A stretch of DNA of 64,000 nucleotides from Escherichia phage LinBro. The notes below the pieces were generated by a model. That model made no database searches. It saw only the letters and a program-made list of their open reading frames with translations, and was not told the DNA's origin. The stretch lies in the sequence record OR896830.1. The stretch is one strand, 5' to 3'. The position numbers were made by a program, and so were the translations under genes. Position 1 is the stretch's first letter; each line of letters opens with the position of its first letter. Positions 57,084 through 59,752 of this stretch are shown piece by piece.

Positions 57084-58499
57084 ATGAGCGAATTATTTAA
57101 ACATGTGCACCTTCATGCAGGTCGAACTGAAAATGGTGCTGTAAACCATACTTCATCAATGTCTGCTCTTGTGGACTTTTACAAAGCTGCTGGTTCTAGC
57201 CGTAGCAATGTAGAAATCTTACCAGACTTGTTCTACAAAGCTTTGCATGAGGATGTTGATGTTGCAGTTCGTATTTTACTGCATATGCGAGATGTACGAG
57301 AAGGTATGGGTGAGCGTAAAGCTTTCCGAACTGTTTTACTTCAAGCGATTGAAGATAAAGTTCTAGAGTCTACACAGGTTCTTCGCATTATGGATAAGAT
57401 TGCAGAGCTTGGTCGCTTTGATGATTTCAAAATCTTCGTGGGTACTCGTTTCGAGACAGATGCCTTCAAGCATTTAGAAGCAGCATTACTAGACCCTGCA
57501 ACAGCAGGTTTGGCAGCTAAGTGGTTACCACGAGTCAAACCACGTCATAAGCAGTTTGTAAAACGTTTCTGCAAGTTTGCCAACTTGAGTGAGAAAGAGT
57601 ACCGCACACTGTTGTCTGCACTATCTGATACAGTTGAGCAAAAAATCTCTGCTAACGAGTTTGGTAAGATTGACTACAGTAAGATTCCTTCACTTGCTGC
57701 TGCACGTTACCAAAAACTGTTTAACCGTAAAGATGGAGAGCGTTACAAATCTTACATCGAGTCCTTATCAAAAGGTGAGACTAAGATTAACGCTGGTGCT
57801 GTTTACCCATACGATGTGATTAAATCTGTCAAGTATGGTAATGCAGATGTTGCTAATGAGCAGTGGAAAGCACTACCAAACTGGATGGCAGAAGGTGAAA
57901 ACATCTTGTGTATGTCTGATGTATCAAGTTCAATGTCTTGGGTGAATTTTGGCTCCATTACTGCTCTGGATATTGGTGTATCACTTGCCTTGTATGTAGC
58001 AGAACGCAATACAGGTTGCTTTAAGAATGAGTTAATGGTTTATTCAACAAACCCTCACTTCATCGAACTGAGTGGTGATTTACGAAACCGTCATCGTCAG
58101 GTGATGCGACACGTTGAATATGGCTCAACTAACTTACAAGCAGCTTTTGACCGCATTCTTGAAACAGGTAAAAGAAACAACTTGACTCAGAAAGATATGC
58201 CAAGTAAGCTTATCATCTTCTCCGATATGGAGTTCAATCAGGTTGATGGAGCTAACGGTCGTACAAACTTTGAAGCAATTCAGAGTAAGTACAAAAAAGC
58301 TGGGTATGAGATGCCACAACTGGTATTCTGGTACTTAGCAAACCGTAATGGTACTTGCGAAGTATCTGTTAAGGATAACGGTGTAGCAATGGTATCAGGG
58401 TTCTCTCCAGCCACTTTAAAAGCTCTGCTTGGTGGTGAGAAGTTTGACCCAATCAGTGTAATGCTCAAAGCAGTAATGATTGACCGTTATATCTGGTAA
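57084..58499 (+). CDS. rsr: Ro60/Rsr-like protein (TROVE-like N-terminal region plus vWA domain)
   Basis: C-terminal vWA MIDAS triad MSDVSSSM ... GSTNL ... IIFSDMEF, matching Ro60 VDVSASM / GGTD / VFTDNETF as recalled; helical N-terminal ~280 aa. Confidence 0.6.
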   Translation: MSELFKHVHLHAGRTENGAVNHTSSMSALVDFYKAAGSSRSNVEILPDLFYKALHEDVDVAVRILLHMRDVREGMGERKAFRTVLLQAIEDKVLESTQVLRIMDKIAELGRFDDFKIFVGTRFETDAFKHLEAALLDPATAGLAAKWLPRVKPRHKQFVKRFCKFANLSEKEYRTLLSALSDTVEQKISANEFGKIDYSKIPSLAAARYQKLFNRKDGERYKSYIESLSKGETKINAGAVYPYDVIKSVKYGNADVANEQWKALPNWMAEGENILCMSDVSSSMSWVNFGSITALDIGVSLALYVAERNTGCFKNELMVYSTNPHFIELSGDLRNRHRQVMRHVEYGSTNLQAAFDRILETGKRNNLTQKDMPSKLIIFSDMEFNQVDGANGRTNFEAIQSKYKKAGYEMPQLVFWYLANRNGTCEVSVKDNGVAMVSGFSPATLKALLGGEKFDPISVMLKAVMIDRYIW

Positions 58500-58517
58500 A
58501 AAGTTTTAAAAAGGGTA

Positions 58518-58546
58518 TTGACAATGTGTTTGATACCCTTTAATAT
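58518..58546 (+). promoter_or_regulatory. sigma70-like promoter at head of tRNA cluster
   Basis: TTGACA, 17-bp spacer, TAATAT; AGGGTAT / ATACCCT inverted repeat brackets the -35. Confidence 0.6.
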
Positions 58547-58664
58547 GTTCTACATAGAAACGAAATGAGAGCTTTTCTAAGATACTGAAAAATATTTTAA
58601 AAAAGTTCTTGACAACCACTAAAAAATAATGTTAAAGTGGTTACATAGAGTTTGAAAAGTTTAT

Positions 58665-58741
58665 CTCTGTTTAGCTCAGATTGGTAGAGCGTTCCGTTTG
58701 GGGCGGTAAGGCCGGAGGTTCAAGTCCTCCAACAGAGACCA
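58665..58741 (+). tRNA. tRNA-Pro (anticodon TGG)
   Basis: Acceptor CTCTGTT/AACAGAG, D-arm GCTCAGATTGGTAGAGC, T-arm GGAGG-TTCAAGT-CCTCC, CCA encoded. Confidence 0.75.
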
Positions 58742-58748
58742 AATTAAT

Positions 58749-58826
58749 GTTCCAGTAGACAAAATGGTATAGTCACCACTCTTTCAAAGTGGATATCTGA
58801 GGGTTCAAATCCCTTCTGGAACGCCA
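58749..58826 (+). tRNA. tRNA-Glu (anticodon TTC)
   Basis: Acceptor GTTCCAG/CTGGAAC, anticodon loop CTTTCAA, T-loop TTCAAAT. Confidence 0.65.
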
Positions 58827-58833
58827 GTTTTGA

Positions 58834-58906
58834 CAGAAGACCAATTACAGCAAACTTAATCTTATTCATCTGAAGGTAAATCGGACAAAGAAGAGATTTG
58901 GTCTGG
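58834..58906 (+). ncRNA. structured RNA element A (candidate Y-RNA-like)
   Basis: 5' CAGAAGACCAA pairs with 3' TTGGTCTGG; conserved TACAGCAA box. Confidence 0.4.
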
Positions 58907-58917
58907 TCATTAAGAAT

Positions 58918-58994
58918 TGCGGGTATAGAGAAAGGGCGTCTCACATGTCTCATTAGCATGGTATCGGCAGGTTCGACTCCTGCACCCGCCTCCA
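58918..58994 (+). tRNA. tRNA-Met or Ile2 (anticodon CAT)
   Basis: T-arm GCAGG-TTCGACT-CCTGC, acceptor 3' ACCCGCC, loop CTCATTA; 5' boundary uncertain, 1-72 pair appears mismatched. Confidence 0.6.
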
Positions 58995-59000
58995 ATTTTG

Positions 59001-59061
59001 CAGAAGACCGTATTCAGCAACAAAATACTTTTTTGCGGATAAAAGAAAAAACACGGTCTGG
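59001..59061 (+). ncRNA. structured RNA element B (candidate Y-RNA-like)
   Basis: 5' CAGAAGACCGT pairs with 3' ACGGTCTGG; TTCAGCAA box. Confidence 0.4.
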
Positions 59062-59072
59062 CAATGTATTAA

Positions 59073-59149
59073 GGTTAGGAAGCACATAAGGTATGTGCGG
59101 TCGCCTGTTAAGCGAATGGCACAGGGTTCGAATCCCTGACTAACCGCCA
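59073..59149 (+). tRNA. tRNA-Asn (anticodon GTT)
   Basis: Acceptor GGTTAGG/ACTAACC, D-stem GCAC/GTGC, loop CTGTTAA, T-arm CAGGG-TTCGAAT-CCCTG. Confidence 0.7.
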
Positions 59150-59157
59150 AATTAAAT

Positions 59158-59245
59158 GTGTCGTTATCCCGTAGATGGTAGCGGTGGGGACTGTAAATCC
59201 CTTGTCATTGAGACTCGGTAGGTTCGACTCCTACACGGCACACCA
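59158..59245 (+). tRNA. tRNA-Tyr (anticodon GTA), long variable arm
   Basis: Acceptor GTGTCGT/ACGGCAC, loop CTGTAAA, ~15-nt variable arm, T-arm GTAGG-TTCGACT-CCTAC. Confidence 0.65.
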
Positions 59246-59250
59246 ATAAA

Positions 59251-59327
59251 GGCTATGTAGTTTAACTGGAGAAAATACTCCCCTGTCACGGGAGATGATG
59301 TGAGTTCAAGTCTCATCGTAGCCGCCA
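59251..59327 (+). tRNA. tRNA-Asp (anticodon GTC)
   Basis: Acceptor GGCTATG/CGTAGCC, anticodon stem CTCCC/GGGAG, loop CTGTCAC. Confidence 0.6.
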
Positions 59328-59388
59328 ATTTTGAGAGGGCTATTTAGCCCCTCCCTTAAAGAGTTCTTACGAGTATTCTTTAAAGGAG

Positions 59389-59462
59389 CAGAAGACCAAA
59401 TACAGCAAGTTATTTAAAATTTCAAGCCAATTTAATTTTGAAAAATTTAAAACTTGGTCTGG
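59389..59462 (+). ncRNA. structured RNA element C (candidate Y-RNA-like)
   Basis: 5' CAGAAGACCAA pairs with 3' TTGGTCTGG; TACAGCAA box. Confidence 0.4.
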
Positions 59463-59475
59463 CTCAACAAATTTA

Positions 59476-59607
59476 CAGAAGACCGTTTACAGCAAAACTT
59501 AAACAATCTATTTCTCCGGTAAAGAAAAGGCGAAGGTTCGATTCCTTCACTCGGCAGATGTCGAGTTGGTGTAATGGTAGCACTTAAGATGATAAACAAC
59601 GGTCTGG
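59476..59607 (+). ncRNA. structured RNA element D with permuted tRNA-like module (candidate Y-RNA-like / YrlA-like)
   Basis: Closing stem AGACCGTT/AACGGTCT; inside, T-arm GAAGG-TTCGATT-CCTTC plus ACTCGGC, 4-nt linker, then GTCGAGT plus D-arm GTGT-AATGGTA-GCAC. Confidence 0.45.
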
Positions 59608-59611
59608 TAAT

Positions 59612-59752
59612 TATCTTTGTAGATAAGTTATTAAGCTTACCTGTGAGTATGCGACCACAAAGGGTGAAAGGGTAAATTCTAGATTTAAACCCAAAAAGTC
59701 ACATCGCTACAGACCTTAAGCAAGTCTGGGTAGCTTATCTACAAAGATAATT
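59612..59752. repeat. 19-bp perfect inverted repeat flanking ~100 bp
   Basis: AATTATCTTTGTAGATAAG at 59614-59632 and exact reverse complement at 59733-59751. Confidence 0.6.

What the first reader, a model, noticed from the sequence alone, without database searches (positions are those of the whole stretch)
57084..59612. Candidate phage Ro60/Rsr system: TROVE+vWA protein followed by four Y-RNA-like elements among the tRNAs
The 471-aa protein at 57084-58499 has a C-terminal vWA domain with an ordered MIDAS triad (DVSSSM, GSTNL, FSDMEF) and a helical N-terminal region, the architecture of Ro60/Rsr. Directly downstream, four paralogous elements share a 5' CAGAAGACC box, a (T)ACAGCAA box and a 3' GGTCTGG box. 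Their closing stems covary: AGACCAA/TTGGTCT in A and C, AGACCGT/ACGGTCT in B, AGACCGTT/AACGGTCT in D. Compensatory change is what a conserved RNA helix looks like. Bacterial Rsr partners with Y RNAs, some with tRNA-like domains and often near tRNA genes. No ORF explains these elements.
Basis: partly seen in the sequence, partly recalled or inferred. Interest (0 to 1): 0.9.

Follow-up and report, generated by a model that had tools for sequence, protein, structure and literature searches.

The report
Phage Ro60-like protein with partner RNAs
A Felix-O1-type coliphage encodes a ring-shaped Ro60-like protein next to four small structured RNAs hidden among its tRNA genes, and the same protein-plus-RNA pairing recurs in very different phages, which points to an undescribed family of Y-RNA-like partner RNAs.

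Summary
The window is a Felixounavirus. The 471-aa ORF (57084-58499) belongs to Pfam DUF2828+DUF7788, not TROVE. Its AlphaFold model (pLDDT 89.7) matches Ro60/Rsr over its full length (top 10 PDB hits, E about 1e-8), and the MIDAS residues are invariant. It is 97% identical to Bas63 gp130. A 2024 preprint calls gp130 Ro60-like and a counter of the Ppl defence system, and only guessed that partner Y RNAs lie among the tRNAs.

Elements A-D are real. Each has a 7-8 bp terminal stem, a single-stranded (U)UACAGCAA box directly after the 5' strand, and a G after the 3' strand. D also carries a permuted tRNA-like module (T arm, closed acceptor hairpin, D arm), as in YrlA.

The same design flanks the homologous gene in phages of Klebsiella, Aeromonas, Campylobacter, Listeria, Staphylococcus, Bacillus, Enterococcus, Mycobacterium and Prevotella. 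In 65 metagenomic loci there are 78 gene-strand hits, 8 antisense and 6 in shuffles. All seven stem pairs covary.

No Rfam family reaches threshold. The weak hits are YrlA, for tRNA-like copies in relatives, and Dictyostelium Class I RNA, for the short copies.

Verdict: a new variant of the Ro60/Y-RNA kind. Protein-RNA binding and RNA expression are untested.

The parts
57015..57044 (+). sigma-70-like promoter upstream of the Ro60-like gene (TTGACA-18-TAAAGT)
   Evidence: Consensus scan, 10 of 12 matches. Consensus match only.
57084..58499 (+). Ro60-like protein gene, 471 aa: N-terminal helical-repeat ring (DUF2828) and C-terminal vWA/MIDAS domain (DUF7788)
   Evidence: Pfam DUF2828 at 3.9e-29 and DUF7788 at 1.7e-43, no TROVE. 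AF2 model pLDDT 89.7, pTM 0.89. The top 10 Foldseek PDB hits are all Ro60/Rsr/TROVE; best is 2i91_B, E 9.9e-9, TM 0.65. 97% identical to Bas63 gp130.
58518..58638 (+). two sigma-70-like promoters (58518-58546, 58609-58638) in front of the tRNA/small-RNA array
   Evidence: Consensus scan, 10 of 12 matches each. That they transcribe the array is inferred.
58831..58909 (+). element A (short class): outer helix UGAC/GUCA, AGA/G internal loop, stem AGACCAA/UUGGUCU, box UUACAGCAA; lies between tRNA-Glu and tRNA-Met
   Evidence: Sequence and fold. Hit by the fixed-frame descriptor. Second-best hit in the window for model R2, trained on other phages (17 bits). Rfam Class I RNA 19.7 bits.
58998..59064 (+). 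element B (short class): outer helix UUGC/GCAA, stem AGACCGU/ACGGUCU, box AUUCAGCAA; lies between tRNA-Met and tRNA-Asn
   Evidence: Fold z-score -2.9. Best hit in the window for R2 (21 bits, E 0.013). Rfam Class I RNA 26.7 bits.
59386..59465 (+). element C (short class): outer helix GAGC/GCUC, stem AGACCAA/UUGGUCU, box AUACAGCAA
   Evidence: Conserved in Bas63 and Sf14.
59473..59610 (+). element D (long class): outer helix UUAC/GUAA, stem AGACCGUU/AACGGUCU, box UACAGCAA, and an internal permuted tRNA-like module
   Evidence: Fold. Shares the T arm, hairpin, D arm order with long copies from five other phages. Weak tRNA model hit at 59499-59549, 22 bits. The Sf14 ortholog scores 30 bits on the tRNA model.
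59532..59583 (+). tRNA-like core of D: T arm GAAGG-UUCGAUU-CCUUC (59532-59548), closed acceptor-like hairpin ACUCGGC-AGAU-GUCGAGU (59549-59566), D-arm-like UGGUGUAAUGGUAGCAC (59567-59583)
   Evidence: Read from the sequence and the MFE fold. The hairpin has a compensatory U-A to A-U change in Sf14.

Best explanation
The gene at 57084-58499 encodes a divergent Ro60-type protein: a ring of helical repeats closed by a vWA/MIDAS domain, of the DUF2828/DUF7788 family. Elements A-D are its cognate small RNAs, functional analogues of Y RNAs.

Shown here:
- The fold match to Ro60.
- The conserved RNA architecture: a terminal stem, a single-stranded ACAGCAA box directly 3' of the 5' strand, an A-rich run before the 3' strand and a G after it.
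- Covariation of the stem.
- Tight, strand-specific genomic linkage of these RNAs to the gene across very distant phages.
- One copy per genome that often carries a permuted tRNA-like module, as in YrlA.

Inferred:
- The RNAs are transcribed with the tRNAs from the promoters at 58518 and 58609, and are released when RNase P and the 3' tRNA-processing enzymes trim the flanking tRNAs.
- The protein recognises the stem plus the ACAGCAA box.
- The RNAs gate or tether the ring. By analogy with Rsr-YrlA-PNPase, the tRNA-like module of D would bring in tRNA-handling or RNA-repair enzymes.
- The complex helps the phage cope with RNA- or tRNA-directed host defence.

The ortholog Bas63 gp130 counters the Ppl defence system. 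That activity was transferable without the phage RNAs, so the RNAs are more likely regulators or adaptors than obligatory cofactors for that particular function.
For: - Protein: full-length Foldseek matches to Ro60/Rsr, including the phage phiLo Ro60, at E 1e-8 to 4e-7. The next-best hits are vWA-only at E>1e-3. MIDAS residues are invariant. Homologs are named 'Ro-like RNA binding protein' or 'RNA-binding protein' in mycobacteriophage and RefSeq records.
- Linkage, named phages: a fixed-frame descriptor (7-bp stem at -10..-4 from CAGCAA) gives 35 hits in the window plus 9 phage loci against 2.7 in shuffles. The 30 perfect Watson-Crick hits all lie beside the gene on its strand.
- Linkage, metagenomic loci: in 65 loci at or below 46% protein identity there are 78 gene-strand hits, 8 antisense and 6.2 in shuffles, and 43 of 65 loci carry at least one.
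- Covariation: 99.2% of cells paired, 7 of 7 pairs changed on both sides, score 1.09 against 0.26 shuffled (0 of 500), and slid controls pair at 30-42%.
- Long class: YrlA model hits in Klebsiella and Mycobacterium phages (E 2.9e-5 and 9.9e-5), and a shared T arm, hairpin, D arm order in six phages.
- KVP40-type phages: the only copy is the leader of the gene's own mRNA, with the Shine-Dalgarno sequence in the loop and the AUG in the 3' strand. This is the layout expected for autoregulation by an RNA-binding protein.
- Neighbouring genes in other phages: RtcB and an HD phosphohydrolase, an RNA ligase, a band-7 protein, a cyclic-phosphate-processing protein.
- Literature: gp130 is Ro60-like and counters Ppl (10.1101/2024.10.10.617714).
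Against: - No direct evidence of transcription, processing or binding.
- No sequence-level TROVE similarity.
- The window's elements do not match Rfam Y_RNA or YrlA, and they lack the CGAA-type Ro-binding motif.
- gp130 alone, from a plasmid or inserted in T7, rescues plating on Ppl. The RNAs are therefore dispensable for at least that phenotype.
- No element was found within 2 kb of the gene in Serratia phage BF or Vibrio phage EniLVp02, nor in 22 of 65 metagenomic loci under the strict descriptor.
- A covariance model trained on other phages scores A and B at only 17-21 bits.
- The 3' strands in the covariation alignment were located by their pairing, which inflates the percentage paired.
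Confidence: 0.7

Rival explanations
1. The elements are real structured RNAs, but their partner is not the Ro60-like protein. They might bind a host factor such as PNPase, an RNA chaperone or a tRNA enzyme, or another phage protein, acting as decoys or sponges. On this reading the gene linkage reflects co-regulation only.
For: - gp130 acts against Ppl without the RNAs.
- The similar Dictyostelium Class I RNAs are reported to bind an RRM protein directly (PMC7919456).
- No binding data exist for the phage RNAs.
Against: - Linkage to this one gene holds across phages of four bacterial phyla, including loci with no nearby tRNA genes (Staphylococcus phage SEP9; Lolly9, whose single tRNA lies about 2.7 kb upstream).
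- In KVP40-type phages the motif sits in the gene's own mRNA leader, over the start codon.
- The protein has the fold of a known Y-RNA binder.
Confidence: 0.15
2. The elements are spacer or punctuation structures of the tRNA array: processing signals or decayed tRNA genes with no function of their own.
For: - A-D lie between tRNA genes in one transcription unit.
- D contains tRNA-derived arms, and its Sf14 ortholog even passes the Rfam tRNA threshold at 30 bits.
- Other structured spacers exist in the same array, at 59608-59756 and 61305-61399.
Against: - The ACAGCAA box and its fixed distance from the stem are conserved between phages whose proteins share only 25-50% identity.
- The elements also occur where no tRNA is adjacent.
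- Decay would not preserve covarying stems.
Confidence: 0.1
3. The repeats act at the DNA level, as recombination, homing or protein-binding sites rather than as RNA.
For: They are short dispersed repeats with inverted-repeat arms. Homing endonuclease genes are common in such phages.
Against: - The strand bias is strong: 78 hits on the gene strand against 8 on the opposite strand.
- The arms change sequence while keeping complementarity.
- An asymmetric single-stranded box is conserved, and tRNA-like modules are embedded.
Confidence: 0.03

Closest known systems
Bacterial and phage Ro60 (Rsr) with YrlA/YrlB or Yrl RNAs (Salmonella rsr-yrlBA-rtcBA; Thermus phage phiLo Ro60-Yrl1/2)
   Same: - A ring of helical repeats plus a vWA/MIDAS domain.
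- Small RNAs encoded beside the gene, each closed by a stem joining the 5' and 3' ends.
- One RNA with a permuted tRNA-like domain and shorter siblings without it.
- RNA-repair genes nearby in some relatives.
   Different: - The protein is in Pfam DUF2828/DUF7788 with no detectable TROVE sequence similarity.
- The conserved RNA box is ACAGCAA, placed directly after the 5' strand, not GNCGAA/CGAA.
- Up to eight RNA copies per locus.
- In Felixounaviruses the RNAs are embedded in the tRNA array.
Bas63 gp130 (PhageMaP preprint 10.1101/2024.10.10.617714)
   Same: It is the same gene: 97% identical, with the same synteny. It is described there as structurally similar to Ro60 and as a counter of the Ppl defence system.
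   Different: The preprint only speculated that some annotated tRNA genes might be Y RNAs. The four elements lie between the annotated tRNAs and were not identified there.
Dictyostelium Class I RNAs (Rfam RF01414)
   Same: - Length of about 50-65 nt, and multi-copy.
- A 6-7 bp covarying stem joins the 5' and 3' ends.
- The single-stranded CCUUACAGCAA box directly follows the 5' strand (phage consensus CUUACAGCAA).
- An A-rich run before the 3' strand, a 5' (A)AG and a 3' CUG(U).
- 14 phage elements are hit by RF01414 at 16.6-29.6 bits, and every RF01414 hit in these scans falls on an element.
   Different: - All scores are below the gathering score of 41.5.
- Class I RNAs are eukaryotic, have their own DUSE promoter and are reported as unique to Dictyostelia.
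- Their known direct binder is an RRM protein.
- I could not show that Dictyostelium encodes a DUF2828 protein.
Eukaryotic DUF2828/DUF7788 proteins (plant 'T31B5_30 / UCP015417 vWA' family)
   Same: Same two-domain Pfam architecture. Some UniRef entries are named 'TROVE domain-containing protein'.
   Different: They are 600-700 aa, with N-terminal extensions and an insert. No partner RNA is known, and no ACAGCAA-box element was found on the two eukaryotic contigs I could read.

Membership tests
Ro60/Rsr (TROVE, Pfam PF05731) | Sequence match to the TROVE domain model | tested here: not met
   Pfam scan at E<=1 lists only DUF2828 and DUF7788. phmmer and a 46-sequence profile find no Ro60 chain in the PDB at E<=10.
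Ro60/Rsr (TROVE, Pfam PF05731) | Closed ring of helical (HEAT-like) repeats joined to a vWA domain with a MIDAS site | tested here: met
   On a predicted structure only. AF2 pLDDT 89.7. The top 10 Foldseek PDB hits are Ro60/Rsr/TROVE over 505-568 aligned columns, TM 0.50-0.66. MIDAS D-x-S-x-S, T and D are invariant.
Ro60/Rsr (TROVE, Pfam PF05731) | Binds Y RNA through a conserved helix, and binds misfolded RNA ends in the central hole | not testable with these tools
   Indirect support only: genomic linkage of candidate RNAs and a motif-bearing mRNA leader.
DUF2828/DUF7788 family | Pfam gathering scores for PF11443 and PF25043 | tested here: met
   102.2 bits (cut-off 29) and 148.9 bits (cut-off 27.1).
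YrlA (Rfam RF02553) | Covariance-model score at or above the gathering score (69 bits) | tested here: not met
   No YrlA hit on the window's elements at E<=10. The long copies in Klebsiella phage FBKp34 and mycobacteriophage Lolly9 reach 39.6 and 37.7 bits.
YrlA (Rfam RF02553) | Permuted tRNA-like domain: T arm, closed acceptor-like stem-loop, D arm, inside a stem formed by the RNA ends | tested here: met
   Element D fold. The same order is seen in six phages.
YrlA (Rfam RF02553) | GNCGAA(N0-1)G Rsr-recognition motif near the 5' end (PMC4201824) | tested here: not met
   The 5' region reads CAGAAGACC..UACAGCAA. The conserved box is ACAGCAA.
Dictyostelium Class I RNA (Rfam RF01414) | Covariance-model score at or above the gathering score (41.5 bits) | tested here: not met
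   A 19.7, B 26.7, C 16.6 bits. The best relative scores 29.6 bits.
Dictyostelium Class I RNA (Rfam RF01414) | Short terminal stem with the 11-nt CCUUACAGCAA motif directly 3' of its 5' strand | tested here: met
   A has UUACAGCAA (9 of 11) directly after the stem. One Aeromonas phage copy has the full CCUUACAGCAA. The stem covaries.
Dictyostelium Class I RNA (Rfam RF01414) | Mature ends AAG...CUGU, DUSE promoter, dictyostelid host | tested here: inconclusive
   The genomic sequence has (A)AG before the stem and CUG(G/U) after it. RNA ends are unmapped. The promoter and host criteria cannot apply to a phage.

The most novel reading that the evidence does not exclude
The phage 'stem plus ACAGCAA box' RNAs and the Class I RNAs of dictyostelid amoebae are one RNA family, or two versions of one protein-recognition module. 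On this reading DUF2828/DUF7788 proteins, which are widespread in phages, plants, fungi and protists, are a second, unrecognised branch of Ro60 with its own Y-RNA-like partners in both viruses and eukaryotes.

A sharp prediction follows. DDB_G0281243 is the protein of unknown function that was pulled down with Class I RNA DdR-21 (10.1101/2020.04.05.026054). It, or another dictyostelid protein, should be a DUF2828-type Ro-like protein that binds the CCUUACAGCAA box.
Probability: 0.2. Interest if true: 0.9.

Novelty: new variant of a known kind. Interest (0 to 1): 0.72.

Why it matters
Ro60 and its Y RNAs are a classic RNA-surveillance particle and a major human autoantigen. Their bacterial and phage versions are only beginning to be understood.

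- This locus gives concrete, testable RNA partners for a protein already shown genetically to defeat a bacterial defence system (Ppl).
- It shows that the partnership is conserved across phages of at least four bacterial phyla.
- It defines a new recognition element, a stem plus an ACAGCAA box, distinct from the CGAA-type Ro-binding site.
- It may explain what some unannotated spacers inside phage tRNA arrays are for.
- Through the unexpected resemblance to Dictyostelium Class I RNAs and the presence of the protein family in plants, it offers a route to the function of two long-standing orphans: DUF2828 proteins and Class I RNAs.

Tried and rejected
1. Sequence-level link to Ro60. Pfam at E<=1, and phmmer and profile searches of the PDB, found nothing. 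Only the fold comparison shows the relationship.
2. Rfam Y_RNA/YrlA on the window. There were no hits, even when only 795 or 74 bases were scanned.
3. MAFFT alignment of whole elements. The 5' halves align but the 3' strands do not. I therefore used constructs anchored on CAGCAA with the variable loop cut out. This fits the alignment to the structure, and I say so wherever it is used.
4. Covariance model R1 from loop-less constructs. It was useless, because Infernal's local ends swallowed the motif and plain hairpins scored best.
5. Covariance model R2, from 55-nt constructs with no Felixounavirus sequences. It ranks B and A first and second in the window, but only at 21 and 17 bits. It finds C only partly and misses D because of its 70-nt insert.
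6. Test for a Dictyostelium DUF2828 protein.
   - An exhaustive search with the Arabidopsis protein gave 6151 relatives.
   - Names for the 10 most AT-biased of the best 150 showed Naegleria, a mite, a chrysophyte and a fungus, but no dictyostelid.
   - A further search from the most Dictyostelium-like candidate found an aphelid and plants.
   - Its contigs are eukaryotic, 42% and 30% GC, and carry no elements.
   - Result: inconclusive, and not evidence of absence.
7. The afdb50 fold library was unavailable.
8. Literature searches for the motif string returned only primer sequences. Avesson 2011 and the 2020 Wolin review are not in the held library.
9. The DNA-repeat reading was rejected on strand bias and covariation.
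Full report
**What the window is.** The region is 97-99% identical at the DNA level to Felix-O1-type coliphages (Felixounavirus: vB_EcoM_LNA6, momo, wV8). ARAGORN finds 26 tRNA genes between 58665 and 63571. The 471-aa ORF at 57084-58499 sits directly upstream of this array.

**The protein.**
- Pfam assigns DUF2828 (aa 172-264, 3.9e-29) and DUF7788 (aa 274-455, 1.7e-43), and no TROVE domain even at E<=1.
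- Neither the sequence nor a 46-sequence profile matches any Ro60 chain in the PDB.
- The AlphaFold2 model built on that alignment is confident (mean pLDDT 89.7, pTM 0.89).
- Its ten best Foldseek matches in the PDB are all Ro60-type: Xenopus and human Ro60, Deinococcus Rsr, and the Thermus phage phiLo Ro60. They align over essentially the whole chain (E 1e-8 to 4e-7, TM up to 0.66). The next hits are isolated vWA domains at E>1e-3.
- The protein therefore has the Ro60 architecture but is not a sequence-level TROVE member.

This is not new in itself. Mycobacteriophage homologs (33% identical) are annotated 'Ro-like RNA binding protein', and RefSeq calls many homologs 'RNA-binding protein'. The window protein is 97% identical to Bas63 gp130. 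A 2024 preprint describes gp130 as structurally similar to Ro60 and as a counter of the Ppl defence system. [quoted passage not shown]

**The four elements.** Each folds in the same way:
- an outer 4-bp helix that differs completely between copies yet stays complementary (UGAC/GUCA, UUGC/GCAA, GAGC/GCUC, UUAC/GUAA);
- an AGA/G internal loop;
- the 7-8 bp stem AGACCNN/NNGGUCU;
- a single-stranded (U)UACAGCAA box directly 3' of the 5' strand.

D also contains a T arm (GAAGG-UUCGAUU-CCUUC), a 7-bp hairpin in the position of a closed acceptor stem, and a D-arm-like hairpin. This is the permuted tRNA-like order described for YrlA (PMC4201824).

The elements lie between tRNA genes, downstream of two good sigma-70-like promoters at 58518 and 58609. 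The simplest inference is co-transcription with the tRNAs and release by tRNA end-processing. All four are conserved in Bas63 and in the more distant Shigella phage Sf14. There the loops diverge, while the stems, the box and the hairpins are kept, in part by compensatory changes.

**Comparative evidence.** The homologous gene occurs in 709 phage records. I read the flanks of the gene in 14 named phages other than close relatives of the window phage. In 12 of them I found RNAs of the same design beside it, always on its strand:

| Phage | Copies found |
|---|---|
| Klebsiella FBKp34 | 3-4, one tRNA-like |
| Aeromonas 4_4572 | 8 |
| Campylobacter CP81 | 2 |
| Listeria List-36 | 3 |
| Staphylococcus SEP9 | 3 |
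| Bacillus PJN02 | 4, one tRNA-like |
| Mycobacterium Lolly9 | 3, one tRNA-like |
| Mycobacterium DirkDirk | present |
| Cronobacter S13 | present |
| Enterococcus H1 | present |
| Prevotella megaphage Lak-B1 | present |
| Vibrio phi-pp2 (KVP40 type) | 1, in the gene's mRNA leader |

- A strict descriptor (a perfect or one-G·U 7-bp stem at positions -10 to -4 from CAGCAA, with the partner strand 15-200 nt downstream) gives 35 hits in the window plus nine loci, against 2.7 in shuffles.
- In 65 further metagenomic viral loci whose proteins are at most 46% identical to the window protein, it gives 78 hits on the gene strand, 8 on the other strand and 6.2 in shuffles. 43 of the 65 loci have at least one.
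- On an alignment of 35 copies anchored on the box, with the variable loop removed, all seven stem pairs show changes on both sides and 99.2% of cells pair. The covariation score is 1.09, against 0.26 in shuffles (0 of 500), and slid controls pair at 30-42%.
- The 3' strands in that alignment were located by their pairing, which inflates the percentage paired. The fixed frame, the shuffle controls and the strand bias do not depend on that choice.
- Consensus: (A)AG-stem-(UU)ACAGCAA ... AAAN-stem-G.

No element was found near the gene in Serratia phage BF or Vibrio phage EniLVp02.

**Relation to curated RNA families.** No Rfam 15 family reaches its threshold on any element.
- The tRNA-like copies of the Klebsiella and Mycobacterium phages hit YrlA at 39.6 and 37.7 bits (E 2.9e-5 and 9.9e-5; gathering score 69).
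- All six long copies I aligned share the T arm, hairpin, D arm order.
- The short copies hit one family only, and unexpectedly: Dictyostelium Class I RNA (RF01414). There are 14 hits at 16.6-29.6 bits (gathering score 41.5), and every RF01414 hit in these scans falls on an element.
- The two consensus sequences almost superimpose. Rfam gives GaUcuC-CUUACAGCAA-Uua...A-rich...GagAuC-UG. The phage model gives AGGaUaC-UUACAGCAA-Aca...AAaAAAA...GuAuCCU-Guuu.
- Class I RNAs are defined by exactly these features and were reported to be unique to Dictyostelia (PMC7919456).
- A covariance model trained only on non-Felixounavirus copies ranks B and A first and second in the whole window, but at modest scores (21 and 17 bits).

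**Mechanism.**

*Shown:* a Ro60-like fold, a covarying RNA family, and strand-specific linkage to the gene across four bacterial phyla of hosts.

*Supporting:*
- In KVP40-type phages the only copy is the leader of the gene's own mRNA, with GAGGA in the loop and the AUG in the 3' strand. This is the classic layout for autoregulation by an RNA-binding protein.
- Neighbouring genes in other phages include RtcB, an HD phosphohydrolase, an RNA ligase, a band-7 protein and a cyclic-phosphate-processing protein. This matches the RNA-repair context of bacterial Rsr.

*Inferred:* the protein binds the stem plus the ACAGCAA box. The RNAs gate or tether the ring, and D's tRNA-like module recruits tRNA-handling enzymes. 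The particle acts in RNA surveillance or repair during infection, or as a counter-defence.

*Against an obligatory role:* gp130 alone rescues T7 on a Ppl host.

**Rivals.**
- The RNAs have a different partner (0.15).
- They are mere tRNA-array punctuation or decayed tRNAs (0.10).
- They are DNA-level repeats (0.03). This last reading is contradicted by the strand bias and the covariation.

**The Dictyostelium lead.** DUF2828/DUF7788 proteins exist in plants and many protists. One of the four proteins pulled down with Class I RNA DdR-21, DDB_G0281243, has no known function (10.1101/2020.04.05.026054). I could not find a dictyostelid member with the searches available. The link therefore rests on RNA resemblance alone. 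I give it about 0.2.

**Verdict.** It is wrong on family membership: the protein is not TROVE, and the RNAs are not Y_RNA or YrlA by their models or by their motif. The protein's Ro60 likeness is already in the literature. The RNA family, its ACAGCAA box, its breadth and its resemblance to Class I RNAs appear to be undescribed in Rfam 15 and in the searchable literature.

Noticed in passing
window 59608-59756 (+): Directly after element D lies a very stable structure with a 24-bp closing stem (dG -46.3 kcal/mol, z -5.7). Inside is a mini hairpin, GCUAC-AGAC-[CUUAAGCAA]-GUCU-GG-GUAGC, whose loop resembles the ACAGCAA box. Sf14 keeps both, with compensatory changes (AAACC-[CUUUAGCAA]-GGUUU). It may be a fifth family member or an RNase III-type processing site.
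   Followed up: partly
window 60826-60862 (+): A small hairpin, AAGGUU-AUUACAGC-UUGUUGUG-GAACCUU-G, lies between tRNA-Ser and tRNA-Leu. It is the fourth-best hit of the independent model R2 (13.3 bits) and may be a degenerate copy of the family.
   Followed up: no
window 60459-60533 (+): A tRNA-like sequence not called by ARAGORN (weak tRNA-Sec model hit, 23 bits). It has a GGGACG.../...CGUCCC acceptor-type pairing and a CCA triplet in the anticodon region, so it may be an aberrant or decayed tRNA.
   Followed up: no
window 59933-60237 (+): Weak permuted-tmRNA and tmRNA model hits (30.8 bits, E 0.0025; 15.9 bits) downstream of a strong promoter-like site at 60006-60034. The same weak hit recurs in Sf14. 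Bas63 annotates a small minus-strand ORF here.
   Followed up: no
window 61305-61399 (+): The spacer between tRNA-Thr and tRNA-Val has a closing stem AGAGGUC/GACCUCU and an inner stem CUGAAG/CUUCAG around GACCGUAACAAA. It is another structured spacer of unknown role.
   Followed up: no
L007 426-977 (Listeria phage List-36, NC_024364): A ROOL RNA match at 91.5 bits (gathering score 99.1) lies about 1 kb upstream of that phage's DUF2828 gene and its three ACAGCAA-box RNAs, with RtcB and an HD phosphohydrolase downstream.
   Followed up: no
L001 6003-6116 (Klebsiella phage FBKp34) and L010 3896-4138 (Cronobacter phage S13): Over-long annotated tRNAs next to the elements. A 114-nt 'tRNA-Asp' carries an insert containing GAAGUUUUACAGCAUU between the D and anticodon arms. 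S13 has a 121-nt 'tRNA-Ser' and a 113-nt 'tRNA-OTHER'. These may be hybrid or mis-annotated members of the RNA family.
   Followed up: no
L004 1965-2006, L033 and L035 (KVP40-type Vibrio phages): The only ACAGCAA-box element forms the 5' leader of the DUF2828 mRNA. The Shine-Dalgarno GAGGA is in the loop and the AUG start codon is in the 3' strand of the stem, which suggests translational autoregulation.
   Followed up: partly
L017 12749-13023 (Bas63, MZ501086): The public annotation places two small minus-strand hypothetical ORFs (bas63_0137, bas63_0138) in the interval between tRNA-Asp and tRNA-Lys that holds elements C and D. These calls are probably spurious.
   Followed up: partly
proteins P0121-P0240, P0241-P0390: The DUF2828+DUF7788 architecture is abundant in land plants and also present in Naegleria, an oribatid mite, a chrysophyte, an aphelid, a Daphnia and fungi. 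An exhaustive search from the Arabidopsis protein finds 6151 cluster representatives at E<=1e-3.
   Followed up: partly
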